Shown piece after piece: positions 5,146 through 56,146 of a stretch of DNA of 64,000 nt. The DNA comes from Patescibacteria group bacterium. Its GTDB lineage: Bacteria > Patescibacteriota > Microgenomatia > UBA1400 > PJMF01. Position numbers and translations under genes: made by a program. Below the pieces are notes generated by a model. That model worked only from the letters and a program-made list of their open reading frames with translations. It was not told where the DNA came from and searched no databases. Location: assembly GCA_049322655.1 (NCBI GenBank), contig JBMORP010000002.1:32923-96922 (forward strand). Reading direction: 5' to 3'. Each line of letters opens with the position of its first letter. The stretch's first letter is position 1.

Positions 5146-6837
5146 TTATTTTTTTCTAAAAAACATTTTTTCTAACTCTTGTTTGGAGATTTTTATTTTC
5201 AGAGGTCTGCCGTGAGGACAAGTATAGAGGGTATTTTTTTGAATAATTTTTTTAACTAGTTGTTGTCGCTCCACAGGTGATAAGTAGTCACCCGCTTTGA
5301 TTGCACTTCGACAAGCCAAAAAACTCAAGGCTCGATTGGTTAATAAATCAGGTTTGACAATCTTGCCATAGGTAGCAAGATCAACCAAAAAATCGTTGAT
5401 CACTCGGTCTATAGTTAAACCTTCAAAAATAACCGGGATTTCTTTAATAATAATTTGTTTGTCATTAATTAAAAAAATAAAACCTAAATTTTTAAAAATA
5501 GTTTTATTTTTTACAAAAAGATAAAGATTTTCTGGATTTAAATTTATTTTTTTATTAATTTTAACTTTTTTTTCTAAAAGTAGCTTATTTTTTTTCAATT
5601 GCTCAGAAAATTCTTGGTAAAGAATCATTTCATGAGCCGCATGTTGATCTACAACCATTAACTCGCCATGAAGTTCAAAAAATAAATAAGTATTTTGAAA
5701 TTGTAGAACCGGACCCAACTCTTGTTGATTGTTATTGATTTGCCAACCTGGTTGTAAGTTTTCTTTCAGATGGTCGGTAGTCGCTCTATCTCTTAACAGA
5801 TATGTTGCAGTTACTTGTTGTGAATTCAAAACATAAGTTAAGTCTTTGGCCAATAAAAATGCTTGTAAGTGTTCAAACAACGCTGTAATTAACTCATCTT
5901 CTTTAAAGATTAAAACCTCTTCTTTCCTTGGGTGAATATTACTGTCAAAAAAATGAGCTGGTAAATTAATAAATATAATAAAAACAGGATAAGCCTTTGG
6001 TTCTAATAATGAGCCATAGGCTTCTCGAATAACTTTGGCAATCTTTCTGTGTCGCACCATTCTGCCATTAATAAATAAGTATTGTTTGCTAGGGCTTCGT
6101 AGTGATAATTGAGGTTTCCCAACTAAACCACTGATTTTTAGTTCATTAGCTAAGTCAACTTTATAAGTCAAGCTTTGGTCAACAAATTCTTGACCAAAAA
6201 CCTCACTCACTCTGTCTGCAAAACTTGGCTGGGATAAAACTTCAAATAGTTTCCTTTGGTCATGATAGACAACAAATTGGACAGTATGATTAACCAAAGC
6301 AAAATTAGTCATTTTTTTCAGAATATAAGCTAATTCTCTTTGAACTTTATTAATAAATTTTTTTCTAGCTGGTAAACCACTAAATAAACTTTCAACTACA
6401 ACTCTAGTGCCAATCGGCATCCCAAATTTTTCATCTTCAGTTATTTGGCCATTCTGGATCACCAACCTATGACCTATTTTTTCAGTTTTTATCCGGCTTT
6501 CCAAGGTAACTTTGGCTACTGCTACCATACTCGCCAAAGCTTCTCCTCTAAAACCAAAACTAGTCAAAGTCTCTAAGTCTTCTAAATTGCTGATCTTACT
6601 AGTAGTATGAGCTAGAAAACTGTTTCTTAAATCAGTAGCATTCATTCCACACCCATTGTCACGAACCTCGATTCTTTTTAACCCACCTTTGTCCAAGTAA
6701 ATCTCGATTTTAGTTGCTCCCGCATCCAAAGAGTTTTCCACTAACTCTTTAACGACTGAATCGGGTCGATCGATTACTTCTCCAGCAGCGATTTTGCTTA
6801 CCACTTCAACTGGTAGTTTTTTAATTTTAGTTACCAT
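5146..6837 (-). CDS. mutL: DNA mismatch repair protein MutL
   Basis: GHKL ATPase N-terminus 'VVKELVENSLDAGATKIEI' and 'DNGCGM'. Overlaps the mutS stop by 11 nt, so the two form an operon. Confidence 0.9.
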   Translation of the reverse strand: MVTKIKKLPVEVVSKIAAGEVIDRPDSVVKELVENSLDAGATKIEIYLDKGGLKRIEVRDNGCGMNATDLRNSFLAHTTSKISNLEDLETLTSFGFRGEALASMVAVAKVTLESRIKTEKIGHRLVIQNGQITEDEKFGMPIGTRVVVESLFSGLPARKKFINKVQRELAYILKKMTNFALVNHTVQFVVYHDQRKLFEVLSQPSFADRVSEVFGQEFVDQSLTYKVDLANELKISGLVGKPQLSLRSPSKQYLFINGRMVRHRKIAKVIREAYGSLLEPKAYPVFIIFINLPAHFFDSNIHPRKEEVLIFKEDELITALFEHLQAFLLAKDLTYVLNSQQVTATYLLRDRATTDHLKENLQPGWQINNNQQELGPVLQFQNTYLFFELHGELMVVDQHAAHEMILYQEFSEQLKKNKLLLEKKVKINKKINLNPENLYLFVKNKTIFKNLGFIFLINDKQIIIKEIPVIFEGLTIDRVINDFLVDLATYGKIVKPDLLTNRALSFLACRSAIKAGDYLSPVERQQLVKKIIQKNTLYTCPHGRPLKIKISKQELEKMFFRKK

Positions 6838-9451
6838 TTTTCTTAAATTTAGTTATTAATGCTGCCAACTTTGTTTGAGCTTGTAGGGGAGTAAGTTGCT
6901 CAATCTCTATTGCAGCTAGAAACTTCTCAAGCTTCAGTAAATTTTTATCTTTAGTTGGTTTATTAAACTTAAAGTTAGTCTCTACTTGACTCCTATTAGC
7001 TTCAAAAGAAAAAAGAATTTCTTCAGCTCGCTGACAAACTTCTTCAGGCACCCCAGCCAACCTCGCTACTGCTACTCCAAAACTATGGGGAGCGGCCCCT
7101 TCAGCGACTGTATGTAAAAACTTAGGTTGATCATCAGCTTCATCCACCAACATGTGAATATTACTGATTTTATCTGGGTACTTACTTTCTAACTGTTGTA
7201 ACTCATGGTAATGAGTAGCAAAGAGAGTAGTAGGACACTGTCGGCACTTACTTAATGCTTCAGCCACCGCCCAAGCCAAACTAATTCCATCATAAGTACT
7301 AGTACCACGGCCAACTTCATCCATAATAATCAAACTCTTAGCTGTAGAGTGCCGCAAAATATAAGCCACTTCAACCATCTCTACCATAAAAGTTGATAAC
7401 CCCTCTGAAATAACATCGGCCGCACCACTTCTCACAAACAAGCTATCAATTAAGTTGATTTCGGCCTTCTCAGCTGGCACAAAACTGCCCAAATGAGCCA
7501 ACAACACAATTAAAGCTATTTGCCTCATATAAACAGATTTTCCAGCCATGTTTGGCCCAGTCACCAGTAACATGTTTCTAGCTGGCACTCCCAATAAAGT
7601 ATCATTGGGCACAAACTGTTTTTTGACCAATAGTTGCTCAAGAACGGGATGTCTGCCTTGAACAATTGCTGTTTTACCAGTCTTAACCATTTTTGGTTTA
7701 ACATAGTTTCTTGTCTCTGCTAATTGAGCAAAACTAGTTAAACAATCTAGATTAGCCAAAGTGGTAGCTGCTTGTTGAATCAACTTAGTATATTCCAAGA
7801 CCTGATTAACAAAATTTTTAAAAAGTTGTTTTTCCAAAACTTCAATCTGTTCTTCAGCCGTTAAGACTTTTTCTTCGTAAACTTTCAAAGCTTTAGTAAC
7901 AAATCTCTCGGCATTAACTAAAGTTTGTTTACGTTCAAATTCCGCCGGAACTTTGCTCACAAATGATTTACTGACCTCAATGTAGTAACCAAAAACTTTG
8001 TTTGATCTAACCTTAAGAGTGGTGATTTGTGTTTGTTTTTTCAAGGTTTCTTCATACTCAGTTAACCAATCTTTACCACCCATAGACAAAACTCTGAGCT
8101 GATCTAACTCTGCACTCACTCCAACTTTGATTACTTTTCCTTCACCAGGAAGACCACTAGCATCATCTGCCACAAACTGCTCAATCAACTCAACTACTTT
8201 GAGCAATTGATTATCGATTTGTTGCTCAAATTTACTGAGTAGTTTGGGTAGCTGCTTTTGTTGACTCGCCAAAATTTCTCTAATCGCCAAAATGTTAATT
8301 AATGACTGTTTAAGATTGATGACCAAAGCAGGCAGAGGCTCTTCAATCGTTAACCGAGCAATAATTCTTTCTAGATCAAAAACTTGGTTTAACTCGTTTC
8401 TAATAAAAAATCTAAGCTCTCTGTTATTGAGTAAATAATCAACCGAATCATGCCTAAGTTCAATCTTTTCCCTGTTCTTAAGTGGGTGAGTAAGCCAATT
8501 GCGTAATAACCTGGAACCCATTGGTGAAACAGTTAAATCAATCGCGGTTAATAACGAACCTTGTTTTTTATTTTCCCTAATAGTTTCAAAAATCTCTAAG
8601 TTATTAATGGTTGATGAATCTAAAGCAATATATTCATCAGATTTTTGTAAATTAAATGTCTTTAGATGTTGTAGTTTATTAAACTGAGTTTCAGTTAAAT
8701 AACCCAAAATAGCAGCCAAAGCTTGTTTGAGCGCTGGCTTACTATGTAAACCAAAACTTCTTAAATTATCAACTTGAAAATGTCGGCTAATGATTGCCTC
8801 AGCTTCATCTGTATACTCATCCCATTGCCTAAAAGGATAAATATTTAACCCTACTTGCTGTTTTAAAATCTTTAATAATGAGTAGTTATGGTAATCAACC
8901 TCAGCTAAAATACACTCACTCGGTTGATACTTGGTTAATTCTTTTTGTAACAAATTAGCAAAGTCATTTCCTTTTAAATAATGGTTGCTCCCAAAAATTT
9001 CACCTGTCGACAAGTCCACAAAAACTAAACCCACAGCTTTGTTATCAATAGCCAAACTCAATATAAAGTTATTTTTCTTAGCACTCAGTGCTTGTTCATT
9101 TACTACTGTTCCTGGAGTAATAATCCTAATCACAGCTCGTTCCACAATGCCCTTATTATCTGGTTCAGAAATCTGTTCACAAATTGCTACCTTGTGACCA
9201 GCCTTAATTAATTTAGCAATATAACTTTCTGCTGAATGGTAGGGCACCCCAGCCATTGGGATCTCTCCATCTTTACCTCTTGGCCTTTTGGTTAAGGTAA
9301 TTCCGAGTAACTTGGCTCCAGTTAAAGCGTCTTCTAAAAACAGTTCGTAAAAATCTCCTAGTCGATAAAATAAAAAACAATCTGGATAAGCTTTTTTTAT
9401 CTCCAAGTACTGTTGCATCATTGGTGTAGAGAACTGTTGAACTTCTGACAT
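6827..9451 (-). CDS. mutS: DNA mismatch repair protein MutS
   Basis: N-terminal 'TPMMQQYLEIK'. Walker A 'VTGPNMAGKSVYMRQ', 'DEVGRGTSTYDG', 'FATHYHEL'. The likely start is the Met of 'MSEVQQF'; the ORF track extends to 9484. Confidence 0.9.
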   Translation of the reverse strand: MSEVQQFSTPMMQQYLEIKKAYPDCFLFYRLGDFYELFLEDALTGAKLLGITLTKRPRGKDGEIPMAGVPYHSAESYIAKLIKAGHKVAICEQISEPDNKGIVERAVIRIITPGTVVNEQALSAKKNNFILSLAIDNKAVGLVFVDLSTGEIFGSNHYLKGNDFANLLQKELTKYQPSECILAEVDYHNYSLLKILKQQVGLNIYPFRQWDEYTDEAEAIISRHFQVDNLRSFGLHSKPALKQALAAILGYLTETQFNKLQHLKTFNLQKSDEYIALDSSTINNLEIFETIRENKKQGSLLTAIDLTVSPMGSRLLRNWLTHPLKNREKIELRHDSVDYLLNNRELRFFIRNELNQVFDLERIIARLTIEEPLPALVINLKQSLINILAIREILASQQKQLPKLLSKFEQQIDNQLLKVVELIEQFVADDASGLPGEGKVIKVGVSAELDQLRVLSMGGKDWLTEYEETLKKQTQITTLKVRSNKVFGYYIEVSKSFVSKVPAEFERKQTLVNAERFVTKALKVYEEKVLTAEEQIEVLEKQLFKNFVNQVLEYTKLIQQAATTLANLDCLTSFAQLAETRNYVKPKMVKTGKTAIVQGRHPVLEQLLVKKQFVPNDTLLGVPARNMLLVTGPNMAGKSVYMRQIALIVLLAHLGSFVPAEKAEINLIDSLFVRSGAADVISEGLSTFMVEMVEVAYILRHSTAKSLIIMDEVGRGTSTYDGISLAWAVAEALSKCRQCPTTLFATHYHELQQLESKYPDKISNIHMLVDEADDQPKFLHTVAEGAAPHSFGVAVARLAGVPEEVCQRAEEILFSFEANRSQVETNFKFNKPTKDKNLLKLEKFLAAIEIEQLTPLQAQTKLAALITKFKKNGN

Positions 9452-9522
9452 GATGTGTATCACACTATGCAGACTTTTTAGCAAAACTTCAAGGTTGGAC
9501 TATCCAAGAATATTACAAGACT

Positions 9523-9549
9523 TTAGCAGTCACTTCATTTTATTGCTAA
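9523..9549. promoter_or_regulatory. CIRCE-like inverted repeat TTAGCAGTC-N9-TATTGCTAA (left end of repeat copy A)
   Basis: Same TTAGCA-N15-TGCTAA architecture as the sites upstream of clpB and lon and at 30451. Confidence 0.5.
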
Positions 9550-9685
9550 TTAGCTTTTCTTGAGAAAAAAATTGATATATCAATCTTGTTTTATGATATG
9601 TTTTGATATTGTTTGATAACTATAAATATATTTGTCAGATTAATATGAGACACTTACCCTCGGGGTGAAAGGGGGTGGAGTGAAA
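9523..9685. repeat. ~160-nt composite repeat element, copy A (CIRCE-like palindrome, then TTGATATATCAA, then an AT-rich core, then a GC-rich hairpin end)
   Basis: Aligns along its length with the reverse complement of 30324-30477. Shared blocks are 'ttagcagtcactt', 'attgatatatcaat' and 'tgagacacttaccc.cgggg..aaagggg.tgg'. Confidence 0.7.
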
Positions 9686-9735: not shown

Positions 9736-10443
9736 ATGCCCAATATGAAAAAACAAAGCTTACTTTTAGTGGTTCTGGCCTTTTTATTGGTCGGAGTAGT
9801 TGCCCTAATTATTGAAAAAAACAATAATAAAAATACCACTTCGCTGGAAGAACAGGTTCTGACTTTTCCCAGCAAAAGCCCAACTGTAGTACCAAGTATT
9901 AAACCAATCACAAAGGAATCAATGAAAAAACAATATGATAATCCTCCTGCTATGCAACTTGATAGCACCAAAAAATATCAAGCAACAATGACTACTTCAG
10001 AGGGAGTAATTGTCATTGAGCTTTATGCCGATCAAACCCCTCAAACAGTCAATAACTTTGTTTTTTTGGCTAACGATAAGTTTTATGATGAAACTATCTT
10101 TCACCGAGTGATTAATGGTTTCATGATCCAAGGTGGTGACCCAGAGGGGACAGGAATGGGTGGCCCAGGTTACCGTTTTGCCGATGAAAAATTTACAGGT
10201 GAATACACTCGTGGCACGATCGCCATGGCTAATGCTGGACCAAATACCAATGGCAGTCAATTCTTTATTATGCATCAAGACTATCCATTGCCACCCAACT
10301 ATGTAATTTTTGGTAAAGTGATAAATGGTTTAGAAGTGGTTGATAAAATTGCCACTGCACCAGTCTCAATGAGTTTATCCGGTGAAAAATCTCAACCAGT
10401 TAAACCAGTAACCATCAAGTCCATCACCATTAGTGAAAACTAA
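9736..10443 (+). CDS. ppiB: cyclophilin-type peptidyl-prolyl cis-trans isomerase, membrane-anchored or secreted
   Basis: 'HRVINGFMIQGGDPEGTGMGGPGYRFADE' and 'NGSQFFI'. N-terminal hydrophobic segment. Start placed at MPNMKKQ behind RBS 'taggga'. Confidence 0.85.
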   Translation: MPNMKKQSLLLVVLAFLLVGVVALIIEKNNNKNTTSLEEQVLTFPSKSPTVVPSIKPITKESMKKQYDNPPAMQLDSTKKYQATMTTSEGVIVIELYADQTPQTVNNFVFLANDKFYDETIFHRVINGFMIQGGDPEGTGMGGPGYRFADEKFTGEYTRGTIAMANAGPNTNGSQFFIMHQDYPLPPNYVIFGKVINGLEVVDKIATAPVSMSLSGEKSQPVKPVTIKSITISEN

Positions 10444-18830: not shown

Positions 18831-18944
18831 TTAGGGACTTTTTATTTTATAAGGTCTTTAGCTGAGCAAGCTTCGGTAGTGGCTCAGGCCACTGCTGAGG
18901 GACTGCCATATTCCAAATTCTTATGTAAAGGATGGTAAAACCCC

Positions 18945-19214: not shown

Positions 19215-19223
19215 GTCCGGAAA

Positions 19224-19487
19224 TTGATGATTACCATCAAGTTCCTGATGACCTTCTTGGTCAAAAAAGGACACAACGTCCTCGACGCGTTCCAGAAAAG
19301 CGCGGCTGATGATGCTCCGCGCGTCATGGCTGAAGCCCGCGAAGCCATGTTCCAGGCGCAAATCTTCGAAGAAGGCGCGGCCGGGTTCGGTGAGGTCCTT
19401 GCCTCCATCGAAACCTTCACCCGCACCGCGGTTACCAACGTGGGAGTGGAAGACTTCATGTCCGCTCTCGAAGACAACGAGGACTAG
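19224..19487 (+). CDS. hypothetical acidic helical protein encoded in the GC-rich island (87 aa)
   Basis: Second ORF of the island, starting 9 nt after the first. Followed by the strong hairpin 19513-19539. Confidence 0.45.
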   Translation: MMITIKFLMTFLVKKGHNVLDAFQKSAADDAPRVMAEAREAMFQAQIFEEGAAGFGEVLASIETFTRTAVTNVGVEDFMSALEDNED

Positions 19488-19512
19488 ATCCTCACCTGTT
19501 TCCAATCAATGT

Positions 19513-19539
19513 GAAAGGGCGCCCCACAAGGGCGCCCTT
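19513..19539 (+). terminator. GC-rich terminator-like hairpin closing the island
   Basis: aaagggcgcc-ccacaa-gggcgcccttt. Confidence 0.55.
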
Positions 19540-19573
19540 TCTACGTTAAAAAGCCTTTGTATATAATACAACT

Positions 19574-27344: not shown

Positions 27345-30323
27345 ATGAAGAAAAATTCATTAGATCATATTATTATTTCTGGTGCTAGGGAACATAATCT
27401 TAAAAATGTTTCTTTTGCTATTCCCAAAAATAAACTAGTTATTTTTACTGGTCTTTCTGGCAGCGGTAAAACCTCTTTAGCTTTTGATACTTTGTATGCT
27501 GAAGGACAACGACGCTATGTTGAGTCTCTGAGTTCTTATGCTAGGCAATTTTTGGGCATTATGCAAAAACCTCAGGTTGACCAAATTGAAGGTTTATCGC
27601 CAGCTATTTCCATTGATCAGAAGACGACTTCCCATAATCCTCGCTCTACCGTTGGTACTATTACCGAGATTTATGATTATCTCAGGCTACTATTTGCCAG
27701 AGTAGGCCACCCACACTGTCACCAATGTGGTCTAGAAATTAGCACCCAAAGTATTGACCAAATTATCAAACAAATTATTGACTTAGTTGAAAAAAAAGCA
27801 GCTAATCAACCAACTAGACTCATGATTCTTTCACCAGTTGTTCAGGCTAGAAAAGGTGAGTTTGCTGCCTTATTTACTAACCTACAAAAACAAGGCTTTA
27901 CCAGAGTCAGAATTGACGGTGAAGTCTTTGACCTGTCAGAGAATATTACTTTATTAAAAAACAATAAACATACGATTGAAGCAGTTGTTGATCGGATCAG
28001 TTTTTCTAAAAAACAATTGAATGATCACCAAGAACTAAAAACTCTCAAATCTAGACTTTCACAAACCATTGAAGAATCATTAAAACTATCAACTGGTTTG
28101 GTAATAGCCAGTTTTATTGACGACAATTCTTTATCATTTCCAGAAAAACCCAAACAGATGGAAGATCACTTATTCAGTGAAAAACTCGCCTGTAGTGATT
28201 GTGGTATTTCTTTAAAAGAACTTGAACCAAGAATGTTTTCTTTTAATTCTCCAGAAGGAGCCTGTGAAACTTGTAATGGCATTGGTTCATTACTCAGAAT
28301 TAACCCAGAAAAAATCATTGCTCCCAGCTTAACGCTGAGCGAAGGTGCCATTATTCCGTTTGCTAGAACTATGAGCAATGACACTTGGTGGTCAAGATTA
28401 GTGAAGGTAGTGGTCGAAACAGCCGGCTATGACTTCAGAAAAACTCCTTATGAAGAATTTAGTGATGAATTTAAACAAAGCTTGCTTCATGGTTCCAAAG
28501 AAATCTACAACGTGACTGGCGAAAATCGATTTGGTAAAGAAACCATGATTCAAGAGAGATTTGAGGGTTTCATTACTAATTTGGAAAGAAGGTATCAAGA
28601 AACTGACAGTGATTACATCCGTAAAGAAATTGAAGAATTCATGCACAAAGAGACTTGTCCTGCTTGTCAGGGCAACAGGTTAAAACCAGAATCTTTGGCT
28701 GTAACAATTGATCACAAAAATATTGCCGATACAACCAACTTAACTATTCAACGAGTTTTGGACTGGTGTAAATCTTTGACCGCAAGTAAAAAACTATCTA
28801 CCAAAGAAACTGAAATCAGTGGCTCGATTTTAAAAGAAATTATCACCAGATTAAGCTTCTTATCTTCTGTTGGACTTAATTATTTGTCACTTGGTAGAGA
28901 AGCTTCTACTTTGGCTGGTGGTGAGGCCCAAAGAATCAGATTGGCTTCGCAAATTGGAACTGGTCTAACTGGAGTGCTGTATATTTTAGATGAACCAACT
29001 ATTGGATTACACCCCAGAGATAATGATCGGTTAGTCGATACTTTAAAAAACCTAAGAGACCAAGGTAACAGCGTGATTGTAGTTGAACATGATCGTGATG
29101 TGATGTTATCTGCTGACTATATTTTTGATTTCGGTCCTGGAGCTGGTAAACATGGTGGAGAAGTTGTTGCTGAGGGAACACCTGAAGAACTAATGGCAGC
29201 CAAAAAATCTGTAACTGGCAAATACCTCTCCCGTAAAAAAGATGTCATTAGACCCAAGAGGGCTGAAGAAAGAAAAGTGATTGGTCTAGATGATATGCCA
29301 GTTATCAGAGGAGCTAATGGTTCGATTCAACTGCGAGGAGCATCTCATCACAACCTAAAAAACATTGATGTCGAGTTTCCACTCAATTCCTTAACTTGTA
29401 TTACTGGTATTTCTGGTTCAGGAAAATCTACTTTACTTCATGACACTCTTTACTATCAATTAATGAAACACCTAGAAAGAAAAATCGATGAAAAAGCTGG
29501 TCATGTTGAACAAGTAATGGTGCCTGATACTGTTAAACGCTTAACTTTAATTGATCAAAGTCCAATTGGTAAAACCCCCCGCTCTAATCCTGCTACTTAT
29601 ACTAAGATCTTTGACTATATTAGAAAACTTTTTGCCAATACCCAGGAAGCTCACATTCGCGGTTACAATCCAGGTAGATTTAGTTTTAATGTTAAAGGCG
29701 GCCGCTGTGAAACTTGCCAGGGGGATGGCCAAATCAAAATCGAGATGCAGTTCTTACCTGATGTTTATGTCACTTGCGATGTCTGTCATGGTCAACGCTA
29801 TAATGAAGAAACTCTCCAAGTAATTTATAAAGGCAAAAATATTTCTGAAATCTTAAAAATGAGTGTTGAAGATGCTTTGGAATTCTTTAAAAGTAATGGA
29901 ACCTTGAAACAAAAACTCCAAACTTTAATTGATGTTGGCTTGGGCTACTTAGAACTTGGCCAACCAGCTCCAACCTTGAGTGGTGGAGAATCTCAAAGGG
30001 TTAAGCTAGCCCGTGAACTAAGTTTAAAAACTAATGATCATGTGGTTTACCTATTAGATGAACCAACTACTGGGTTGCATTTTGCTGATGTGCAAAAACT
30101 ATTAAATGTTTTACATAAATTGGTTGCTCAAAACAATACCGTGATTTTGATTGAACACAATCTGGATGTCATTAAGAATGCTGATTGGTTAATTGATCTT
30201 GGTCCTGAGGGTGGAGAATATGGCGGTGAAATCATTGCCATCGGAACACCACAACAAGTAGCTAAAAATAAAAACTCATTTACTGGTAAATATTTGGCTG
30301 AAGAATTTAAAAACCAACACTAA
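27345..30323 (+). CDS. uvrA: excinuclease ABC subunit A (UvrA)
   Basis: 'IIISGAREHNLKN'. Two ABC cassettes ('GLSGSGKTSLAFD', 'GISGSGKSTLL'). Zinc-finger Cys pairs. 'LSGGEAQRIRLA' and 'LSGGESQRVKLA'. Confidence 0.9.
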   Translation: MKKNSLDHIIISGAREHNLKNVSFAIPKNKLVIFTGLSGSGKTSLAFDTLYAEGQRRYVESLSSYARQFLGIMQKPQVDQIEGLSPAISIDQKTTSHNPRSTVGTITEIYDYLRLLFARVGHPHCHQCGLEISTQSIDQIIKQIIDLVEKKAANQPTRLMILSPVVQARKGEFAALFTNLQKQGFTRVRIDGEVFDLSENITLLKNNKHTIEAVVDRISFSKKQLNDHQELKTLKSRLSQTIEESLKLSTGLVIASFIDDNSLSFPEKPKQMEDHLFSEKLACSDCGISLKELEPRMFSFNSPEGACETCNGIGSLLRINPEKIIAPSLTLSEGAIIPFARTMSNDTWWSRLVKVVVETAGYDFRKTPYEEFSDEFKQSLLHGSKEIYNVTGENRFGKETMIQERFEGFITNLERRYQETDSDYIRKEIEEFMHKETCPACQGNRLKPESLAVTIDHKNIADTTNLTIQRVLDWCKSLTASKKLSTKETEISGSILKEIITRLSFLSSVGLNYLSLGREASTLAGGEAQRIRLASQIGTGLTGVLYILDEPTIGLHPRDNDRLVDTLKNLRDQGNSVIVVEHDRDVMLSADYIFDFGPGAGKHGGEVVAEGTPEELMAAKKSVTGKYLSRKKDVIRPKRAEERKVIGLDDMPVIRGANGSIQLRGASHHNLKNIDVEFPLNSLTCITGISGSGKSTLLHDTLYYQLMKHLERKIDEKAGHVEQVMVPDTVKRLTLIDQSPIGKTPRSNPATYTKIFDYIRKLFANTQEAHIRGYNPGRFSFNVKGGRCETCQGDGQIKIEMQFLPDVYVTCDVCHGQRYNEETLQVIYKGKNISEILKMSVEDALEFFKSNGTLKQKLQTLIDVGLGYLELGQPAPTLSGGESQRVKLARELSLKTNDHVVYLLDEPTTGLHFADVQKLLNVLHKLVAQNNTVILIEHNLDVIKNADWLIDLGPEGGEYGGEIIAIGTPQQVAKNKNSFTGKYLAEEFKNQH

Positions 30324-30477
30324 CCACACCCCTTTACCCCCGTGGGTAAGTGTCTCACAGCTGGCTGACAACAAACTTAATATATAAAACAATATCTAAA
30401 TCTATCAAAAATAAAATTGATATATCAATGTTTTACTCGAGAAGATAATATTAGCAGTCACTTTTAATATCTGCTAA
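30324..30477. repeat. ~155-nt composite repeat element, copy B (inverted relative to copy A)
   Basis: GC-rich hairpin end 'cacccctttacccccgtgggtaagtgtctca', then 'attgatatatcaat', then TTAGCAGTC-N9-ATCTGCTAA. The final motif overlaps the last codons and stop of coaDE. Confidence 0.7.
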
Positions 30478-31575
30478 AAACTGTTTTAAGTCTTGAATGA
30501 CTTTTTGGTCGTTACTTTCAATCACCCACAACTGACCTTGTCCATCACGCTTAATTATTTTTGCTAGTTCTTGTTTCTTTTTAGAGAAATCATATTGACT
30601 GGCTAGGCGAGTCTTAATTTGTTCAACAGTTAAATCACGAGCTTCCAATCGTTGTCGCTGAATTTTTTCATCTGCTTTGACTAAAATTACATTATTATTT
30701 GATAAATAAGCCATATCAGACTCAGCAATTAAAGCTGCATTGAGTAAAATCAAACCTTTTTTGCCATAAAGTTCTCGTCTTAGCCTCACCAAAATCGGCG
30801 TATACATAATTTTATTCAGAGCGGCTAATTTCTCTTCGTCGTGAAATACAATCTCTCCCAATATTTTACGATTAATTGTGCCGGCTGGGTTTTTTATTTT
30901 TTCGCCAAATTCTTTAGTTAGCTGTTGACGAACTTTAGCGTAGCCAGTTTCAGTTAGCCTCTCATAGATATCATGAGCTAAGTGATCTAACTCTATGTGG
31001 TGAACTTCCAAGCCCTGTTCTTTTCCCAGTTCAACTAGTTTTTGACAAACAAAAGACTTACCCACCCCAATCTCACCCGTCACACTAACAATCATTTGCT
31101 CTGACATTTTTTTCTCCAACTTACTTTTCACCAACATTGGCACATATTCATGAATTAAACCCTGTTCTTTTTGGATTGCTTTCACTGAACTGGAACTAAT
31201 GTGAGCCAACTTCGGATCAGCAAATAATAATACGGTTTCCATGCCTAATTTTTGACTTTCACCCAATTGATTGAGGTAACGCTCATATTCAAAGTCTTTG
31301 GTGTCTCTCATTCCCTTAACAATTACTTCTGCACCTTGTTCATAAGCAAAATCAACTAATAGTCCAGTAAATGAAACTACCTTAACATTTTTTAAATGAC
31401 GAAGAGAATGACTAGCCATTTCGGTTCTAGCTTCAAGAGAAAACATGTATTTTTTATCAGGATTTACTCCAATGGCAACAATAACCTGATCAAAAACCTT
31501 GGCTGTTCGTTGAACAACATCAATATGACCATAAGTAATCGGATCACCAGAGAAAGCATAAATAGCTTTAGACAT
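30451..31575 (-). CDS. coaDE: bifunctional phosphopantetheine adenylyltransferase / dephospho-CoA kinase (CoaD-CoaE fusion)
   Basis: N-terminal 'AIYAFSGDPITYGHIDVVQRT' (CoaD HxGH-type). C-terminal 'VSVTGEIGVGKSFV' P-loop (CoaE). Confidence 0.75.
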   Translation of the reverse strand: MSKAIYAFSGDPITYGHIDVVQRTAKVFDQVIVAIGVNPDKKYMFSLEARTEMASHSLRHLKNVKVVSFTGLLVDFAYEQGAEVIVKGMRDTKDFEYERYLNQLGESQKLGMETVLLFADPKLAHISSSSVKAIQKEQGLIHEYVPMLVKSKLEKKMSEQMIVSVTGEIGVGKSFVCQKLVELGKEQGLEVHHIELDHLAHDIYERLTETGYAKVRQQLTKEFGEKIKNPAGTINRKILGEIVFHDEEKLAALNKIMYTPILVRLRRELYGKKGLILLNAALIAESDMAYLSNNNVILVKADEKIQRQRLEARDLTVEQIKTRLASQYDFSKKKQELAKIIKRDGQGQLWVIESNDQKVIQDLKQFLADIKSDC

Positions 31576-46132: not shown

Positions 46133-47667
<1,535 letters not shown>

Positions 47668-47812
47668 CTAAGGAGAATGGGTAGGGGAAATCACGACCCC
47701 TTTTCTCCCGAGAACAGTAATGTTCTCGAAACTCCAAGTCCTATGATCACCATATCTAGGCCGTTTTCACCGCCGTGTTTGTCTCAGAAGTAAAATGTTG
47801 TAACTGTTAATT

Positions 47813-47840
47813 AACCCTCATTAATCGAGGGTTTTTTATT
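47813..47840 (+). terminator. terminator 150 nt after 16S
   Basis: aaccctc-attaatc-gagggtt followed by T6. Confidence 0.6.
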
Positions 47841-48174
47841 TGAAAATTAGTACATTAATTAATAATATTCTTTAGATTCATAATCTCGTCGATAAAATAA
47901 TTAGAGTGTAGAAAACTATCTAACAAATCTCCTCAGATTCACTTTTTAAAATTTTTGTTAATAAATATAATTACTATCTAAAAACCAACAATTACTTATA
48001 GGTTTTTAGCAGACAATATATTTAACTGCTAATTTGAAACAATAAAAATAAACAACCATTCATCAATCCTTTTTCATTGATATTTTAAGATATCTTTTGA
48101 TTTGTTTTTATATATTTTGTTAGATAAAATGACTAGTTTAATCACAGCAGGCAATTTCCACCTTGAATCTCTTT

Positions 48175-48201
48175 TTAGCAATGATATATAATGATTGCTA
48201 A
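48175..48201. promoter_or_regulatory. CIRCE-like operator TTAGCAATG-N9-GATTGCTAA upstream of clpB
   Basis: Same length and spacing as the HrcA CIRCE element (TTAGCACTC-N9-GAGTGCTAA). A -10-like TATAAT sits inside it. Lies 34 nt before the clpB ATG. Confidence 0.5.
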
Positions 48202-48234
48202 TTACTTTTATTATTCTTAATAAAGGAGTTAGGG

Positions 48235-50802
48235 ATGAATTTAAATCGTTTTACTACTAAATCTGCTGAAGCTATTCAGGGCACCATGCAGTTAGCTGGC
48301 AAATTAAAACATCCTGCCATGCAACCTTTGCACCTTTTCTTAGTTCTAGTAGAACAACCTAATGGATTAATTCCATCTTTACTCCAAAAACTAGAACAGG
48401 ATTTGGCTGCTTTAAAATTAAAAATTAAAGATAAACTCTCAACTCTTCCTACAACTGATACAACTACTCAAGCCTATGTTTCACCAGAGCTCCAACAAGT
48501 CTTGGCTAAAGCAGAAACAGAAGCAGGCAAACTCCGAGATGAATACATTAGTACTGAACACTTATTTTTAGGTTTACTAGATAACCAAGAAATCAAACAG
48601 TTAATTGACTTAGACAAAAAAGCTGTCTTGGAAACATTGAAAAAAATTAGAGGCAACCAAAAAGTAACTGATCCAGATCCAGAAGGTAAATACCAAGCCT
48701 TAGAAAAATATACTCAAGACTTTACTGAGCTGGCCAAACAAGGAAAAATCGATCCAGTCATTGGTCGAGATGAGGAGATCCGACGTATTACCCAAATTCT
48801 TTCTAGAAGAACTAAAAACAACCCAGTGCTAGTCGGAGAACCGGGTACTGGTAAAACAGCGATTGTTGAAGGTCTAGCCAAAAAAATCGTTGACCATGAT
48901 GTACCAGATGTATTAAAAAACAAAAAAATCCTCAATCTGGATATGGGAGCGTTAATTGCTGGCGCCAAATATCGTGGTGAGTTTGAAGATCGCCTCAAAG
49001 CTGTCATTAAGGATATTGAAGCCGCTGATGGTGAAATCATTTTATTTATTGATGAACTTCATACTATTGTTGGTGCAGGCGCTCAAGAAGGCTCAACTGA
49101 TGCTGGTAACTTACTCAAACCAGCTCTTGCTCGTGGCAAACTCAGAACTATTGGGGCAACTACTTTAAAAGAATATCGAAAATACATCGAAAAAGATGCT
49201 GCTTTGGAGCGCCGTTTTCAACCAGTCATAGTGGAAGAACCTTCAGTAGATGATTCACTTTCGATTTTACGAGGTATTAAAGAAAAATATGAAACTCACC
49301 ACGGTGTCAAAATCCGTGACAACGCTTTAGTTGCTGCCGTCAAACTTTCTCATCGTTATATCGCTGATAGATTCTTACCAGATAAAGCCATTGACCTCAT
49401 GGATGAGGCTGCCTCAGCCATTAGAATCGAGATTGAAAGCAAACCAACCATCATTGATGCTTTGGAAAGAAAAATTCGCCAACTAGAAATCGAAAAAGCT
49501 GCTTTAACCAAAGAAAAAGATGATCAAAGTAAAGAGCGACTCAAAGAAATAGAAAAAGAAATTGCTGAACTAACCGAGAAACACAAGCAATTAGAACTTC
49601 ATTGGCAAGCAGAAAAAAATACTATTGATAAAATCAAAAAATCCAGCAAACAAATCGATGAACTCAAAGAACAAGCCATTCAAGCTGAGCGTAATTACGA
49701 TTTACAAAAAGTGGCAGAAATCAACTATGGCAAAATTCCAGAGTTAGAAACTGCAATAAAAACAGCTAAAGCAGAATTGAAAAAGATTCAAACTAATCAA
49801 AAAATCCTCAAAGAAGAAGTTACTCAAGAGGATATTGCCCGAGTTGTAGCCCGCTGGACCGGTATTCCAGTCGAAAAAATGCTCGCTGAAGAGGGCGATA
49901 AATTAACCAAACTCGAAGATGAAATTGCTGAGCGAGTTGTTGGTCAAAGAAAGGCCATTGTTGCCGTAGCTAATGCTATTCGTCGCAATCGAGCTGGCAT
50001 AGGTGAGGAAGGGAAACCAATCGGTTCTTTCATCTTCATGGGACCAACTGGCGTAGGTAAAACAGAGCTAGCCAAAACTTTGGCTGAAGTACTGTTTGAT
50101 GATGAAAAAATGATGATCAGAATCGATATGAGTGAATACATGGAAAAACATTCTGTGGCCAGATTAATTGGTTCACCTCCCGGTTATGTTGGCTATGAAG
50201 AGGGTGGACAATTGACTGAAGCAGTTAGACGCAGACCATACTCGGTCATTTTATTTGATGAAATAGAAAAAGCCCACCATGATGTTTTTAATACCTTGCT
50301 TCAAGTTTTAGATGATGGCAGATTAACCGATAGTAAAGGCAGAACAGTTGATTTTAAAAACACCGTGATTATTATGACCTCAAATCTGGGCAGTGAACTA
50401 ATTGCCGACTTTAAAGACGAGCCAATTAAACAAGAACAAGAAGTTCATAAATTACTTAAACAACAATTCAGACCAGAATTCTTGAATCGAATTGATGATA
50501 TTATTATTTTCCAACCACTAGCTGAAAAAGAAATCACCAACATTGTTGATCTTCAAGTTTCAGAATTGAAAAAAAGGCTTAAAGAAAATAAAAATATTGA
50601 GCTCATTGTTTCAGCTAAAGCGATTAAATATTTTGCAAGTGCTGGTTATGACTCAATCTTTGGTGCTAGACCACTGAAAAGACTAATTCAAAAAGAGCTC
50701 TTAGATCCGCTCTCTTTAGAAATTATTCAGGGACAAATTAAAGAAGGTGACAAAATAAAAGCTGAGTTTGATGGTCGAAAAATTACTTTTAAATCAAGCT
50801 AA
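48235..50802 (+). CDS. clpB: ATP-dependent chaperone ClpB
   Basis: Two AAA+ modules ('GEPGTGKTA', 'GPTGVGKTE') separated by a long coiled-coil middle domain. 855 aa. Confidence 0.9.
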
Positions 50803-50855
50803 TTTTTCTATTAGAAAAAAAACTAGACCATGCTACAATACTGGTTATCGTTTTT

Positions 50856-50929
50856 GGGTGTGTAGCTCAGGTGGTTAGAGCGCTGTCCTGATAAGACAGA
50901 GGTCCCATGTTCGAGTCATGGCACACCCA
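50856..50929 (+). tRNA. tRNA-Ile (anticodon GAT)
   Basis: GGGTGTG…CTGTC-CTGATAA-GACAG…CACACCC-A. Confidence 0.75.
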
Positions 50930-50988
50930 CTTTTTTATTTCCTGATAAAATTATTGTTGTTGCTTGACTAGATAGCGCATTGGCCAAA

Positions 50989-53667: not shown

Positions 53668-53691
53668 AAACCTCAATTTGAACCTTGTCTT

Positions 53692-53718
53692 TTAGCAGAC
53701 AAAAATATAGAATGCTAA
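53692..53718. promoter_or_regulatory. CIRCE-like operator TTAGCAGAC-N9-GAATGCTAA upstream of lon
   Basis: Same TTAGCA-N15-TGCTAA architecture. Lies 22 nt before the lon ATG. Confidence 0.5.
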
Positions 53719-53740: not shown

Positions 53741-56146
53741 ATGAGCGGGATATCTGAAAAAACTACCTCAGACCAACCAACTAATTTACCAACTAGTAGT
53801 AACTTACCGGTTGACCAATTAAAACTACCAGTTGTGCCTCTCAAAGAGGGTATTCTATTTCCAGCCACTGAATCGGTTTTGACTTTTGGGAGAAAAATTT
53901 CTTTAACTGGTCTTAAAGCGGCTACCCAAAATCCCAAAAAACTGGTAGTCCTAGTGGCACAAAAAAAAACCTCAATTATTAATCCTAAGACCAAAGACTT
54001 ATATGACATTGGCACTTTGGCAGTGGTAGAAAGAACCATCAAAACTGATGACACTGTTAATGCTCTGGTAAGGGGAATTGGTAGAATCAAAATTCAACAG
54101 TTTACCCAAGAAAAACCCTACTTGGAGGCAAATGTCAATAGAGTTAGAGATATTGAATTAAATGATGATGAAACCAAAGCACTAGCTAACCATTTACAGA
54201 AATCATTCCGTAAAACAGTGCAAATGGGCAAACCAGTTGAATTTCTTAATTTCATGAAATTACTAAGTGGAGTTAGAGCTGGAGAACTAGCTGACCAAAT
54301 TGCCAGCACCCTAAATTTATCAACTCAAATTAAACAATCAATCCTGGAAATTATTGATGTTAAACAAAGACTAAAAACTGTTGCTGACCATCTTTCTAGA
54401 GAAATTAAAATCTTGGAAATAGAGAAAGATGTGGTTTATAAAACTCAAGAAAAATTTGATAAACACATGCGAGAAAGTGTCTTAAGAGAAAGACTAAGAA
54501 CCATTCAAAAAGAACTTGGTGAGATCGATGACGAAGATGAGTTGGCTGACTCGTATCTAACCAAATTAACTAAGCTAAAAGTCAATCAAGATATTAAAAA
54601 AACCATCAAAAAAGAAATCAAACGCCTAAGACAAATGTCTCCAAACAACCCAGAGACTGGTTACATCCGCTCTTGGCTCGATATTATTTTTGATTTGCCT
54701 TGGGGTAAAACTTCTCAAGAAAAAGTTGATCTTAAACAAGCTCAAAAGGTTTTGGATTTGTATCATTATGGTTTGGAAGACGTAAAAGATAGAGTTTTGG
54801 AGTACATTGCTGTTTTGCAACTTAAACAAAAAAACAAAGCCACAGAAAACGATGCTACCCCAACTATTTTATGTTTTGCCGGTCCTCCAGGAGTAGGTAA
54901 AACTAGTATCGGCAAATCTATTGCCCAAGCTCTTGGTAGAGAGTTTATTAAAGTTTCACTAGGGGGAATTAGAGATGAGGCTGAAATCAGAGGCCATCGC
55001 AAAACTTATGTCGGAGCCATGACCGGTAAAATTATTGCAGGTATTAAACAAGCCAAAACCATGAACCCAGTCTTTATGTTAGACGAAGTTGATAAGATTG
55101 GTAATGACTTTCGTGGTGATCCAGCAGCTGCTTTACTAGAGGTATTAGATCCAGAACAAAATAAAGAATTCGTTGATCACTACTTAGACCTTCCCTTTGA
55201 CCTATCAAAAACCATTTTTATTACTACAGCTAATACTTTGGATACTATTCCGCCTGCTCTCAGAGATCGTTTGGAAATCATCAATTATTCTGGTTATACC
55301 CACGAAGAAAAATTCAATATTGTTAAAAAACATTTATTAGCAAAGGTCATCAAAACCAATGGCCTAAAAGAAGAAAATATTGAGCTAGCAGATGAAGTCA
55401 TTAATAAAGTGATTAGTGGCTATACTAGGGAAGCTGGAGTCAGAAACCTGGAAAGAACTTTACACACTATTGCCAGAAAAATAGCTAAAACTCTGGTGCT
55501 TAACCCCAAAAAGACAAAAGTTGTTGTGAGTAGCAAAGATCTTAAAAAATTTCTTGGTCCACAGAAATTTGATGATGGTCTTGCAGAGAAAAAAGACATG
55601 GTTGGGGCAGCCACCGGTCTGGCTTGGACAGCTGTGGGCGGCGATATTCTTTTTGTTGAAGTAGCTTTAGCTCCAGGTAAAGGCAGGATCCAAATTACTG
55701 GTCAGCTAGGTGAAGTGATGAAAGAATCAGCACAAGCTGCCTTTACTTATGTCAAAGCCAACCTAAAAAAACTTGGTATTAGTGAAAACAAAATCAACAA
55801 AACTGATATTCATATTCATGTTCCTGAGGGAGCCGTCCCTAAAGACGGACCTTCAGCAGGCGTAACTTTGACTACCGCGATTGTTTCTGCCTTTACTTCT
55901 ATCGCTGTAAAAAGAACTGTAGCCATGACTGGCGAAGTGACTTTAAGAGGCAAAGTATTGAGAATTGGAGGCCTAAAAGAAAAATCAATTGCGGCTCACC
56001 GAGCAGGAATCACCACGGTTATTATTCCTCAAGAAAACGAACGAGATCTAGAAAAAATACCGAAATCAGTCAAAAAATCAGTTACTTTTAAACCAGTTTC
56101 CTCAGTAGATGAAGTGTTAAAACTAGCTCTGACAAAAACTCTTTAA
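53741..56146 (+). CDS. lon: ATP-dependent Lon protease
   Basis: LON N-domain, AAA+ 'GPPGVGKTS', S16 protease 'DGPSAG' with 'K' in 'LKEKSIAAHRAG'. Confidence 0.9.
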   Translation: MSGISEKTTSDQPTNLPTSSNLPVDQLKLPVVPLKEGILFPATESVLTFGRKISLTGLKAATQNPKKLVVLVAQKKTSIINPKTKDLYDIGTLAVVERTIKTDDTVNALVRGIGRIKIQQFTQEKPYLEANVNRVRDIELNDDETKALANHLQKSFRKTVQMGKPVEFLNFMKLLSGVRAGELADQIASTLNLSTQIKQSILEIIDVKQRLKTVADHLSREIKILEIEKDVVYKTQEKFDKHMRESVLRERLRTIQKELGEIDDEDELADSYLTKLTKLKVNQDIKKTIKKEIKRLRQMSPNNPETGYIRSWLDIIFDLPWGKTSQEKVDLKQAQKVLDLYHYGLEDVKDRVLEYIAVLQLKQKNKATENDATPTILCFAGPPGVGKTSIGKSIAQALGREFIKVSLGGIRDEAEIRGHRKTYVGAMTGKIIAGIKQAKTMNPVFMLDEVDKIGNDFRGDPAAALLEVLDPEQNKEFVDHYLDLPFDLSKTIFITTANTLDTIPPALRDRLEIINYSGYTHEEKFNIVKKHLLAKVIKTNGLKEENIELADEVINKVISGYTREAGVRNLERTLHTIARKIAKTLVLNPKKTKVVVSSKDLKKFLGPQKFDDGLAEKKDMVGAATGLAWTAVGGDILFVEVALAPGKGRIQITGQLGEVMKESAQAAFTYVKANLKKLGISENKINKTDIHIHVPEGAVPKDGPSAGVTLTTAIVSAFTSIAVKRTVAMTGEVTLRGKVLRIGGLKEKSIAAHRAGITTVIIPQENERDLEKIPKSVKKSVTFKPVSSVDEVLKLALTKTL

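What the first reader, a model, noticed from the sequence alone, without database searches (positions are those of the whole stretch)
48175..48201. CIRCE-like 27-nt inverted repeat immediately upstream of clpB and lon (putative HrcA-type heat-shock operator)
TTAGCAATG-ATATATAAT-GATTGCTAA lies 34 nt upstream of the clpB ATG. TTAGCAGAC-AAAAATATA-GAATGCTAA (53692-53718) lies 22 nt upstream of the lon ATG. Both have the same length and arm spacing as the Firmicute/Chlamydial CIRCE element (TTAGCACTC-N9-GAGTGCTAA), with outer arms TTAGCA/TGCTAA conserved. Two classical heat-shock genes carrying the same palindrome at promoter-proximal position strongly suggests a repressor-controlled stress regulon. 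The same motif recurs at both copies of the 160-nt repeat (9523, 30451) and in degenerate form at 18804. In most bacteria CIRCE/HrcA controls groE and dnaK rather than clpB and lon, so the regulon composition would be unusual.
Basis: partly seen in the sequence, partly recalled or inferred. Interest (0 to 1): 0.6.

Follow-up and report, generated by a model that had tools for sequence, protein, structure and literature searches.

The report
Variant CIRCE heat-shock operators in Patescibacteria
A 27-base palindrome over the predicted promoters of the stress genes clpB and lon in a tiny-genome (CPR) bacterium is a real, conserved repressor-type binding site closely resembling the classic CIRCE heat-shock operator, so it extends a known system rather than revealing a new one.

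Summary
TTAGCA-N15-TGCTAA occurs 5 times in 64 kb against 0.01 expected. A matrix trained only on relatives recovers exactly these five sites.

The organism is a Patescibacteria (CPR) bacterium. The motif is kept at the lon promoter in 15 relatives (GC 32-51%) and upstream of clpB in about a dozen. It lies between or over predicted -35 and -10 boxes. The arms show no compensatory changes, so it is a protein-binding operator, not a hairpin.

The clade half-site is TTAGCAGWC, against canonical CIRCE TTAGCACTC. More distant relatives carry near-canonical CIRCE at the same promoters.

The HrcA assignment is therefore well motivated but unproven. No hrcA, groEL or dnaK lies in any DNA I could reach.

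The claim of an "unusual regulon" is wrong. Mollicutes use CIRCE/HrcA for clpB, lon and dnaK, sometimes with two CIRCE copies at clpB. The "degenerate" site at 18804 is not a site.

One new point: the promoter-distal copies form a composite. A 12-bp palindrome TTGAT-NN-ATCAA sits exactly 22 nt away in many genomes, followed by 10-bp-phased GATAT heptads. This suggests a second, unknown factor.

The parts
48175..48201 (.). Promoter-proximal CIRCE-like operator of clpB (TTAGCAATG-N9-GATTGCTAA)
   Evidence: Exact match. Scores 22.8 bits with the relatives-only matrix. Conserved in L002 and L004.
48163..48192 (+). Predicted sigma-70-type clpB promoter, TTGAAT-18-TATAAT. The -10 box lies inside the operator spacer.
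   Evidence: Consensus scan, 10 of 12 matches. The same layout is in L004 (TTGAAC-18-TATAAT). This is a prediction; no transcript data exist.
48006..48032 (.). Distal CIRCE-like site upstream of clpB, 169 bp before the proximal one.
   Evidence: Scores 27.3 bits. Conserved in L004 at 824.
48055..48066 (.). Degenerate copy of the 12-bp palindrome (ACCATTCATCAA), 22 nt from the distal site, followed by GATAT heptads
   Evidence: Module alignments. L004 has TTGATTTATCAT at the same offset.
48235..50802 (+). clpB (855 aa)
   Evidence: TIGR03346 at 1276 bits against a cut-off of 1232. Pfam domains.
53692..53718 (.). CIRCE-like operator of lon (TTAGCAGAC-N9-GAATGCTAA)
   Evidence: Scores 28.5 bits. 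Conserved at lon in L004 and L005 and in L204-L211, L213 and L215-L219.
53685..53713 (+). Predicted lon promoter, TTGTCT-17-TAGAAT. The -10 box is embedded in the right half of the operator.
   Evidence: A -10-like hexamer (TAGAAT in most, TACAAT in L210, TAGACT in L207) sits in the same register in 13 related lon sites.
53741..56146 (+). lon (801 aa)
   Evidence: TIGR00763 at 902 bits against a cut-off of 608.
9523..9549 (.). CIRCE-like site in repeat copy A, between mutS (-) and a cyclophilin PPIase gene (+)
   Evidence: Scores 22.7 bits. It lies 72 nt upstream of the mutS ATG at 9451 and about 104 nt upstream of the predicted transcription start of the PPIase gene.
9572..9583 (.). 12-bp palindrome TTGATATATCAA, 22 nt from the CIRCE-like site
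9592..9632 (+). Three 10-bp-phased heptads (ATGATAT / TTGATAT / TTGATAA) and predicted promoter TTGATA-18-TATATT (9603-9632)
9736..10443 (+). Cyclophilin-type peptidyl-prolyl isomerase, a possible third target
   Evidence: Pfam PF00160, E = 3.8e-44.
6827..9451 (-). mutS (followed by mutL), a possible target of the 9523 composite read leftwards
   Evidence: Pfam MutS domains I-V. The order palindrome, 22 nt, CIRCE-like site, gene is the same as at clpB in L207, L211 and L217. A weak predicted promoter TTCTCA-18-TAAAAT overlaps the site.
30451..30477 (.). CIRCE-like site in repeat copy B (the 'orphan'). It overlaps the last 8 codons and the stop of coaD/coaE.
   Evidence: Scores 27.3 bits.
30417..30428 (.). 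12-bp palindrome TTGATATATCAA, 22 nt from the site
30379..30408 (-). Predicted promoter TTGATA-18-TATATT of the orphan module, pointing antisense into the 3' end of uvrA
9521..9680 (+). Repeat copy A (about 160 nt), the inverted partner of 30320-30481
30320..30481 (-). Repeat copy B (about 160 nt)

Best explanation
The 27-mers are DNA operators of the CIRCE type for a dimeric repressor, most likely the clade's HrcA orthologue.

At clpB (proximal copy) and lon, the operator fills the space between the -35 and -10 boxes and covers the -10 of a sigma-70-type promoter. A bound repressor would therefore exclude RNA polymerase. When unfolded proteins accumulate, for example on heat shock, the repressor loses activity. 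In the Bacillus model this happens because GroEL is titrated away. The disaggregase ClpB and the protease Lon are then induced.

The clade uses a variant half-site, TTAGCAGWC, instead of TTAGCACTC.

The distal copies (48006, 9523, 30451) belong to a 61-bp composite with a second palindrome. They probably add cooperative or second-factor control.

Shown: the motif, its excess over chance, its conservation, its sequence-level rather than structural constraint, and its position relative to predicted promoters.

Inferred: the identity of the protein, repression, and the stress response.
For: Excess over chance:
- 5 exact sites against 0.01 expected.
- A matrix built from relatives only separates the five sites (at least 22.7 bits) from everything else (at most 13.9 bits; shuffles reach at most 17.7).

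Conservation:
- The site is kept at lon in 15 relatives with GC 0.32-0.51 and 54-85% Lon identity. Upstream of clpB it is kept in L002-L005, L007, L207-L209, L211, L213, L216 and L217, while the surrounding intergenic DNA diverges.

Position:
- At clpB, the predicted promoter is TTGAAT-18-TATAAT with the -10 inside the operator.
- At lon, TTGnnn abuts the left arm and TAGAAT is embedded in the right half.
- HrcA operators overlapping core promoters are documented in H. pylori (PMC6032397).

Link to CIRCE:
- The outer hexamers and the 15-nt gap are identical to TTAGCACTC-N9-GAGTGCTAA (PMC3842655).
- Orthologous promoters in more distant relatives carry near-canonical arms: L007 clpB CTAGCACTC...GACTGCTAA, L219 lon TTAGCACTC, L206 lon TTAGCACTT.
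- The Firmicute L016 has a perfect CIRCE before clpB.
- Perfect 9-bp arms occur in the clade: L205 has TTAGCAGAC-N9-GTCTGCTAA.

Protein site rather than hairpin:
- There is no covariation. The inner three pairs are unpaired in 15-20 of 34 sites.
- Predicted RNA folds are weak, and the lon site does not fold as the palindrome.

Precedent:
- HrcA/CIRCE controls clpB, lon and dnaK in Mollicutes, with two CIRCE copies at clpB.
Against: - No hrcA, groES/EL, dnaK or grpE was found in the window, in the flanking DNA reachable beyond its ends (about 1.8 kb left, about 7 kb right), or in 36 related loci. Neither the regulator nor the core CIRCE targets could be checked.
- Position 7 of the half-site is G, not the canonical C, and position 8 is A or T.
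- Three of the five window sites are not at a core promoter of a chaperone gene. One lies in the 3' end of a coding ORF next to no obvious target.
- Some relatives (L214, L230, L231) have lon without the site.
- All promoters are consensus predictions.
- The related loci were found through clpB and lon themselves. The apparent restriction of the motif to these genes is therefore biased by how the loci were collected.
Confidence: 0.65

Rival explanations
1. The palindrome is an operator for a different, possibly CPR-specific, transcription factor that converged on or inherited CIRCE-like half-sites. HrcA is absent or irrelevant.
For: - The half-site differs from canonical CIRCE at positions 7-8.
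- hrcA could not be found in any reachable DNA.
- The distal copies are tied at a fixed 22 nt to a second palindrome not known from CIRCE systems.
- No paper in the library links HrcA to CPR bacteria.
Against: - The outer hexamers and the spacing are identical to CIRCE.
- Near-canonical CIRCE arms sit at the orthologous promoters of more distant relatives (L007, L219, L206).
- The target genes are the same as in the Mollicute HrcA regulon.
Confidence: 0.2
2. The motif is part of a duplicated promoter cassette or other repeat that spread by duplication or recombination. It has no specific stress-regulatory role. Its presence at clpB and lon reflects shared ancestry of the cassette.
For: - Three window copies sit in about 120-160 nt modules that align with each other.
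- One module is an orphan between convergent genes.
- Similar orphan modules lie between convergent genes in L213 and L216.
Against: - The lon and proximal clpB sites are not inside such modules, yet keep the motif across genomes with 32-51% GC while the flanks diverge.
- None of the other intergenic regions of the window (27 of at least 40 nt in all) carries it.
- The register relative to the -35 and -10 boxes is fixed.
Confidence: 0.08
3. It acts as an RNA or DNA hairpin, for example a terminator, attenuator, RNA thermometer or mRNA-stability element, rather than as a protein-binding site.
For: - It is an inverted repeat.
- The proximal clpB copy folds at -8.7 kcal/mol, z = -3.7.
- CIRCE has been proposed to affect mRNA stability in Bacillus (from my own knowledge, not checked here).
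Against: - There are no compensatory changes. The observed pairing is lower than in 495 of 500 shuffles, and the inner pairs are broken in about half of the sites.
- The lon copy does not fold as the palindrome.
- No T-run follows the sites.
- At lon and clpB the left arm lies upstream of the predicted -10 and so would not be transcribed.
Confidence: 0.03

Closest known systems
CIRCE operator / HrcA repressor (class I heat-shock regulon, Bacillus subtilis type)
   Same: - A 27-bp element with 9-bp arms and a 9-bp spacer.
- Outer hexamers TTAGCA and TGCTAA identical.
- Promoter-proximal position before proteostasis genes.
   Different: - The inner arm is GWC rather than CTC.
- The targets seen here are clpB and lon, not groE or dnaK, which could not be examined.
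- The regulator gene was not found in accessible DNA.
Mollicute HrcA regulon (Mycoplasma, Spiroplasma, Acholeplasma)
   Same: - A genome-reduced bacterium in which CIRCE sits before clpB and lon.
- Two CIRCE copies at clpB in S. melliferum (PMC5138195). A CIRCE lies directly upstream of lon in M. pneumoniae (PMC7737663).
   Different: - Mollicute CIRCE is canonical and described as highly conserved.
- No accompanying TTGAT-NN-ATCAA palindrome is described there.
- The phylum is unrelated.
Dual HspR + HrcA control in Helicobacter / Campylobacter
   Same: One repressor site overlaps the core promoter and a second factor's site lies upstream of it (PMC6032397). This resembles the composite of CIRCE-like site and second palindrome.
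   Different: - HAIR is CTTGAGT-N7-ACTCAAG. The palindrome here is TTGAT-N2-ATCAA.
- Here the CIRCE-like site can be the more distal partner.
- No fixed spacing is reported for HspR and HrcA sites.
CtsR box (class III heat-shock operator of Firmicutes) and dual CtsR/HrcA promoters
   Same: - The heptad-N3-heptad tandem geometry with a TCAAA core (TATCAAA-CAA-TATCAAA on the minus strand at 9594-9618).
- Dual CIRCE plus CtsR promoters are known (L. plantarum hrcA, PMC3842655).
   Different: - The consensus GGTCAAA is not matched at positions 1-2.
- No ctsR gene was seen.
- CtsR is known mainly from Firmicutes (from my own knowledge).
FNR/CRP-family sites (TTGAT-N4-ATCAA)
   Same: - The half-sites TTGAT and ATCAA.
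- In the PPIase module the palindrome centre is about -62 from the predicted start, a classic class I activator position (inference).
   Different: The spacing is 2 nt, not 4, so the geometry does not fit that family.

Membership tests
CIRCE operator | Inverted repeat with 9-bp arms separated by exactly 9 bp (27 bp in total) | tested here: met
   All five window sites and 29 sites in relatives have TTAGCA and TGCTAA 15 nt apart. A copy with 14-nt spacing at 18804 does not score.
CIRCE operator | Arm sequence TTAGCACTC / GAGTGCTAA | tested here: inconclusive
   Positions 1-6 are 93-100% identical to the consensus. Position 7 is G in 64% (C in 4%), position 8 is T in 64% or A in 34%, and position 9 is C in 73%. 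Relatives L007, L219 and L206 have canonical or near-canonical left arms at the same promoters.
CIRCE operator | Located at or just downstream of the promoter of heat-shock chaperone or protease genes | tested here: met
   This holds for the proximal clpB site and the lon site, with predicted promoters. It does not hold for the distal copies at 9523, 30451 and 48006.
CIRCE operator | Also present at groESL and hrcA-grpE-dnaK operons of the same genome | not testable with these tools
   None of these genes is in the window, in the reachable flanks (about 1.8 kb left, about 7 kb right) or in 36 related loci.
HrcA regulon | An hrcA gene (PF01628 / PF03444) in the genome | not testable with these tools
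   - Absent from the window, including ORFs without Pfam hits scanned at E up to 5.
- The protein search returned only Bacillaceae.
HrcA regulon | HrcA binds the operator, and targets are derepressed by heat or by loss of GroEL activity | not testable with these tools
   Needs experiments.
CtsR box | Tandem heptads A/GGTCAAA-NAN-A/GGTCAAA | tested here: not met
   The geometry matches but the sequence is TATCAAA. The pattern is enriched in the window only inside the repeats.
HAIR / HspR operator | CTTGAGT-N7-ACTCAAG | tested here: not met
   The second palindrome is TTGAT-N2-ATCAA.
Intrinsic terminator / structured RNA | A stem kept by compensatory changes, with a T-run or significant folding energy | tested here: not met
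   There is no covariation. Folds are weak or absent. No Rfam hit.

The most novel reading that the evidence does not exclude
The promoter-distal copies are half of a conserved 61-bp composite: CIRCE-like 27-mer, exactly 22 nt, then TTGAT-NN-ATCAA. The centres are about four helical turns apart. Phased GATAT heptads that merge into a promoter usually follow.

This would be a CPR-specific two-factor stress switch. An HrcA-type repressor would act with, or against, a second, still unidentified DNA-binding protein. Some copies may drive short non-coding transcripts, as in the orphan module.
Probability: 0.4. Interest if true: 0.55.

Novelty: new variant of a known kind. Interest (0 to 1): 0.4.

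Why it matters
Almost nothing is known about transcription control in Patescibacteria (CPR), which are mostly uncultured and have very few regulators. Several consequences follow.

- A conserved, recognisable operator gives a concrete regulon to test in metatranscriptomes and co-cultures.
- It shows that the minimal proteostasis circuit of Mollicutes (CIRCE before clpB and lon) recurs independently in another genome-reduced lineage.
- The shifted half-site (C7 to G) offers a natural case of operator and repressor co-evolution.
- The fixed-distance second palindrome points to an additional, unknown regulator.

Tried and rejected
**Looking for hrcA, groEL, dnaK and grpE**
- Pfam scans of all 45 main ORFs, plus lenient scans of the ORFs without hits: none found.
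- Walking beyond the window through Logan contigs of SRR32167788: about 1.8 kb on the left and about 7 kb on the right, with no heat-shock genes. One look-up failed because of the start-codon choice.
- A protein search with B. subtilis HrcA: only Bacillaceae listed, so it is useless for reaching CPR HrcA.

**Literature**
- Searches for HrcA combined with Patescibacteria, Saccharibacteria or CPR: no relevant paper.

**Motif fishing**
- The strict clade consensus gave 7 hits, about the number I estimated for chance. They look like terminator-type hairpins in phage contigs (by eye), and none had a hit to the chaperone, HrcA or window proteins.
- For this reason I ran no further search on a pattern. 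I used Lon instead.

**Other readings rejected or left open**
- Rfam on the window and on the repeat: only 16S and tRNAs; nothing for the repeat hairpin.
- A sigma-54 or sigma-32 promoter reading was rejected on spacing and sequence.
- A LexA/SOS-box reading, prompted by the neighbours mutS, uvrA and dinB, was rejected. The sites lie at the 3' ends of uvrA and dinB, and the dinB link follows from synteny with clpB.
- DnaA-box and IHF readings of the heptads were rejected by eye.
- 18804 was rejected as a site.

Full report
**Observation**

An exact search for TTAGCA-N15-TGCTAA finds five copies in the 64-kb window, against 0.01 expected from dinucleotide shuffles. They start at 9523, 30451, 48006, 48175 and 53692.

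The copy at 48006 was overlooked. It lies 169 bp upstream of the clpB-proximal copy, so clpB has two.

Four copies lie in the 6.8% of the window that is non-genic. The fifth covers the last eight codons and the stop of a coaD/coaE fusion ORF.

Allowing two mismatches adds only hits at chance level, all within coding ORFs. The copy claimed at 18804 has 14-nt spacing and a mismatch. It is the flank of a long unrelated hairpin and does not score with a position matrix.

**Context**

- The window has 36% GC.
- It carries a lone 16S rRNA gene (46134-47667) with no 23S, and four tRNAs.
- It encodes pyruvate formate-lyase, pyruvate:ferredoxin oxidoreductase, UvrABC, MutSL, a DUF2298 protein, PMT-type glycosyltransferases, ClpB and Lon.
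- The closest ClpB loci in GTDB genomes are MAGs. One is labelled Patescibacteria group and one, more distant, Candidatus Peribacteria.
- The exact proteins occur only in Logan contigs of run SRR32167788.
- The organism is therefore a CPR/Patescibacteria bacterium using the standard genetic code.

**Conservation**

I used the single genome scan on ClpB and the single metagenome scan on Lon. Together they gave 36 loci from related or other CPR lineages.

The gene order clpB, tRNA-Ile, lon, PEGA-domain gene is conserved.

The motif, with at most one mismatch in the outer hexamers, is present immediately upstream of lon in L004, L005, L204-L211, L213 and L215-L219. These span 54-85% Lon identity and GC from 0.32 to 0.51. 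Upstream of clpB, or of a short ORF or NUDIX gene preceding clpB, it is present in L002-L005, L007, L207-L209, L211, L213, L216 and L217. The surrounding intergenic DNA is otherwise poorly conserved.

A matrix trained only on the relatives' sites scores the five window sites at 22.7-28.5 bits. The next window position scores 13.9, inside a gene. The best of 30 shuffles scores 17.7.

Three relatives (L214, L230, L231) have lon without the site. Other CPR lineages (L006, L008, L011) and the distant Lon group (L221-L228) lack it.

**Anatomy**

Pooling both arms of 35 distinct sites gives the half-site T-T-A-G-C-A-G-(T/A)-C. Positions 1-6 are almost invariant. Position 7 is G in 64%, position 8 is T or A, and position 9 is C in 73%. 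The 9-nt spacer is 83% A+T.

Perfect 9-bp arms occur, for example TTAGCAGAC-AAAAAGATT-GTCTGCTAA in L205.

The canonical CIRCE is TTAGCACTC-N9-GAGTGCTAA (PMC3842655). The clade element therefore shares its length, spacing and outer hexamers, and differs mainly at position 7.

More distant relatives bridge the gap at the orthologous promoters:
- L007 clpB has CTAGCACTC...GACTGCTAA.
- L219 lon has TTAGCACTC.
- L206 lon has TTAGCACTT.
- A Mogibacterium MAG has a perfect CIRCE before clpB (L016).

**Position relative to promoters (predictions only)**

- At clpB the scan finds TTGAAT-18-TATAAT (48163-48192), with the -10 inside the operator spacer. L004 has the same layout.
- At lon it finds TTGTCT-17-TAGAAT (53685-53713).
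- In relatives a TTGAAA, TTGCCA or TTGCGC hexamer abuts the left arm. In 13 related lon sites a -10-like hexamer, usually TAGAAT, sits at positions 17-22 of the 27-mer.
- In L219 the operator covers the -35. In L209 clpB it covers the predicted start.

This is the classical position of a repressor that occludes RNA polymerase. It is also the position mapped for HrcA in Helicobacter (PMC6032397).

**Protein site or hairpin?**

On an ungapped alignment of 34 sites, the six outer pairs hardly vary. The three inner pairs are unpaired in 15-20 of 34 sequences, and covariation is below the shuffled mean. In 495 of 500 shuffles the pairing is at least as high as observed.

Predicted RNA folds are weak, at -5 to -9 kcal/mol. 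The lon copy does not fold as the palindrome. There is no T-run and no Rfam match.

The constraint is on sequence, as expected for a dimeric DNA-binding protein.

**Mechanism proposed**

A CIRCE-type repressor, most likely HrcA, binds the proximal operators of clpB and lon and blocks initiation. Proteotoxic stress inactivates it and the two genes are induced.

What is shown: the motif, its excess over chance, its conservation, its nature as a sequence-constrained site, and its placement.

What is inferred: the protein, the repression and the stress signal.

I could not find hrcA, groES/EL, dnaK or grpE by any of these routes:
- Pfam on all ORFs, including lenient scans of those without hits.
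- The flanking DNA reachable outside the window, about 1.8 kb on the left and about 7 kb on the right.
- tblastn with typed chaperone and HrcA sequences against all loci.
- A protein search with B. subtilis HrcA, which returned only Bacillaceae.

**Regulon composition**

They are not.
- In Mollicutes HrcA controls dnaK, clpB and lon. Spiroplasma melliferum has two CIRCE copies at clpB (PMC5138195).
- Mycoplasma pneumoniae lon has its own CIRCE (PMC7737663).

The present case looks like the same minimal proteostasis circuit in another genome-reduced lineage. I found no paper linking HrcA or CIRCE to CPR bacteria.

**The distal copies and the composite**

The copies at 9523, 30451 and 48006 are not at core promoters. 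They head modules of about 120-160 nt that align with each other and with L004.

Each module consists of:
- the 27-mer;
- 22 nt, usually ending in an A-tract;
- a 12-bp palindrome TTGAT-NN-ATCAA;
- two or three (A/T)(A/T)GATAT heptads phased by 10 bp, the last being the -35 of a predicted promoter TTGATA-18-TATATT.

Across 359 kb of clade DNA there are 24 matches to TTGA-N4-TCAA. Nine of these, out of 13 intergenic ones, lie next to a CIRCE-like site. Eight are at exactly 22 nt and one is at 20 nt, in seven different genomes. By eye, L004 and L005 have degenerate copies at the same 22-nt offset and L003 has a half copy.

The centres of the two palindromes are 41.5 bp apart, about four helical turns.

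The composite occurs in both orientations relative to the nearest gene, and sometimes between convergent genes (window 30451; L213, L216).

I cannot name the factor:
- The half-site resembles FNR/CRP sites but the spacing is wrong.
- The heptad geometry resembles a CtsR box but the sequence differs.
- HAIR does not fit.

This is the most novel element of the locus and it remains unexplained.

**Possible further targets**

- The cyclophilin PPIase gene (9736-10443) lies downstream of module A.
- mutS-mutL lie on the other side of module A. There the order palindrome, 22 nt, 27-mer, gene is the same as at clpB in L207, L211 and L217.
- Both assignments are tentative.

**Verdict**

The feature is real and conserved. 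It is best read as a lineage-specific variant of the CIRCE operator controlling clpB and lon in a CPR bacterium. It carries an additional fixed-distance partner motif of unknown function. It is a new variant of a known kind and of moderate interest.

Noticed in passing
window 46134-50930: The 16S rRNA gene stands alone. A terminator-like hairpin follows it at 47813-47833, then clpB, then tRNA-Ile(GAT) at 50856-50930. There is no 23S or 5S in the window. In L205 the CIRCE composite lies in a spacer that ends at tRNA-Ile, directly upstream of lon. In L206-L208, L210 and L211 tRNA-Ile sits directly upstream of lon. This looks like a broken rRNA operon whose spacer region hosts heat-shock genes.
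   Followed up: partly
window 18815-19541: Two small ORFs (18945-19214 and about 19228-19487) appear much more GC-rich by eye than the 36% genome; the 2-kb window around them is 42% GC. Strong hairpins flank them at 18815-18878 and 19517-19541. The ORFs have no Pfam match. This is probably foreign DNA.
   Followed up: no
window 9521-9680 and 30320-30481: A roughly 160-nt inverted repeat pair lies 20.6 kb apart and could mediate inversion of the segment between. Each copy has a predicted promoter followed by the hairpin GAGACACTTACCCnCGGGGnTAAAGGGG. The orphan copy would transcribe antisense into the 3' end of uvrA. A similar hairpin lies in the clpB 5' region of L003 (about 9911-9951). It has no Rfam match and its fold is not significant.
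   Followed up: partly
L208, L209, L210, L211, L213, L216, L217 (lon start): In relatives the lon ATG lies 4-5 nt after the operator, about 9-10 nt after the -10 TAGAAT, with no Shine-Dalgarno sequence. The lon mRNA is probably leaderless. The window's lon has a 22-nt gap and an AGGA-like box.
   Followed up: no
window 9572-9618, 30393-30428, 48055-48100; L004, L005, L205, L207, L211, L213, L216, L217: The 12-bp palindrome TTGAT-NN-ATCAA and the 10-bp-phased GATAT heptads accompany the distal CIRCE-like sites at a fixed 22-nt distance. The binding factor is unknown.
   Followed up: partly
L211 5673-6164: A LAGLIDADG homing endonuclease ORF (PF00961, E = 2e-23) lies upstream of the NUDIX-clpB unit in a relative.
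   Followed up: no
L213 4089-5246 and L216 3762-4934: A terpene-synthase-like gene (PF19086) sits immediately upstream of clpB in two CPR relatives.
   Followed up: no
window 30451-30477: The coaD/coaE fusion ORF ends inside the palindrome. Its last 8 codons (LADIKSDC) and its TAA stop are the operator sequence itself, so the regulatory motif doubles as coding sequence or extended the ORF.
   Followed up: partly
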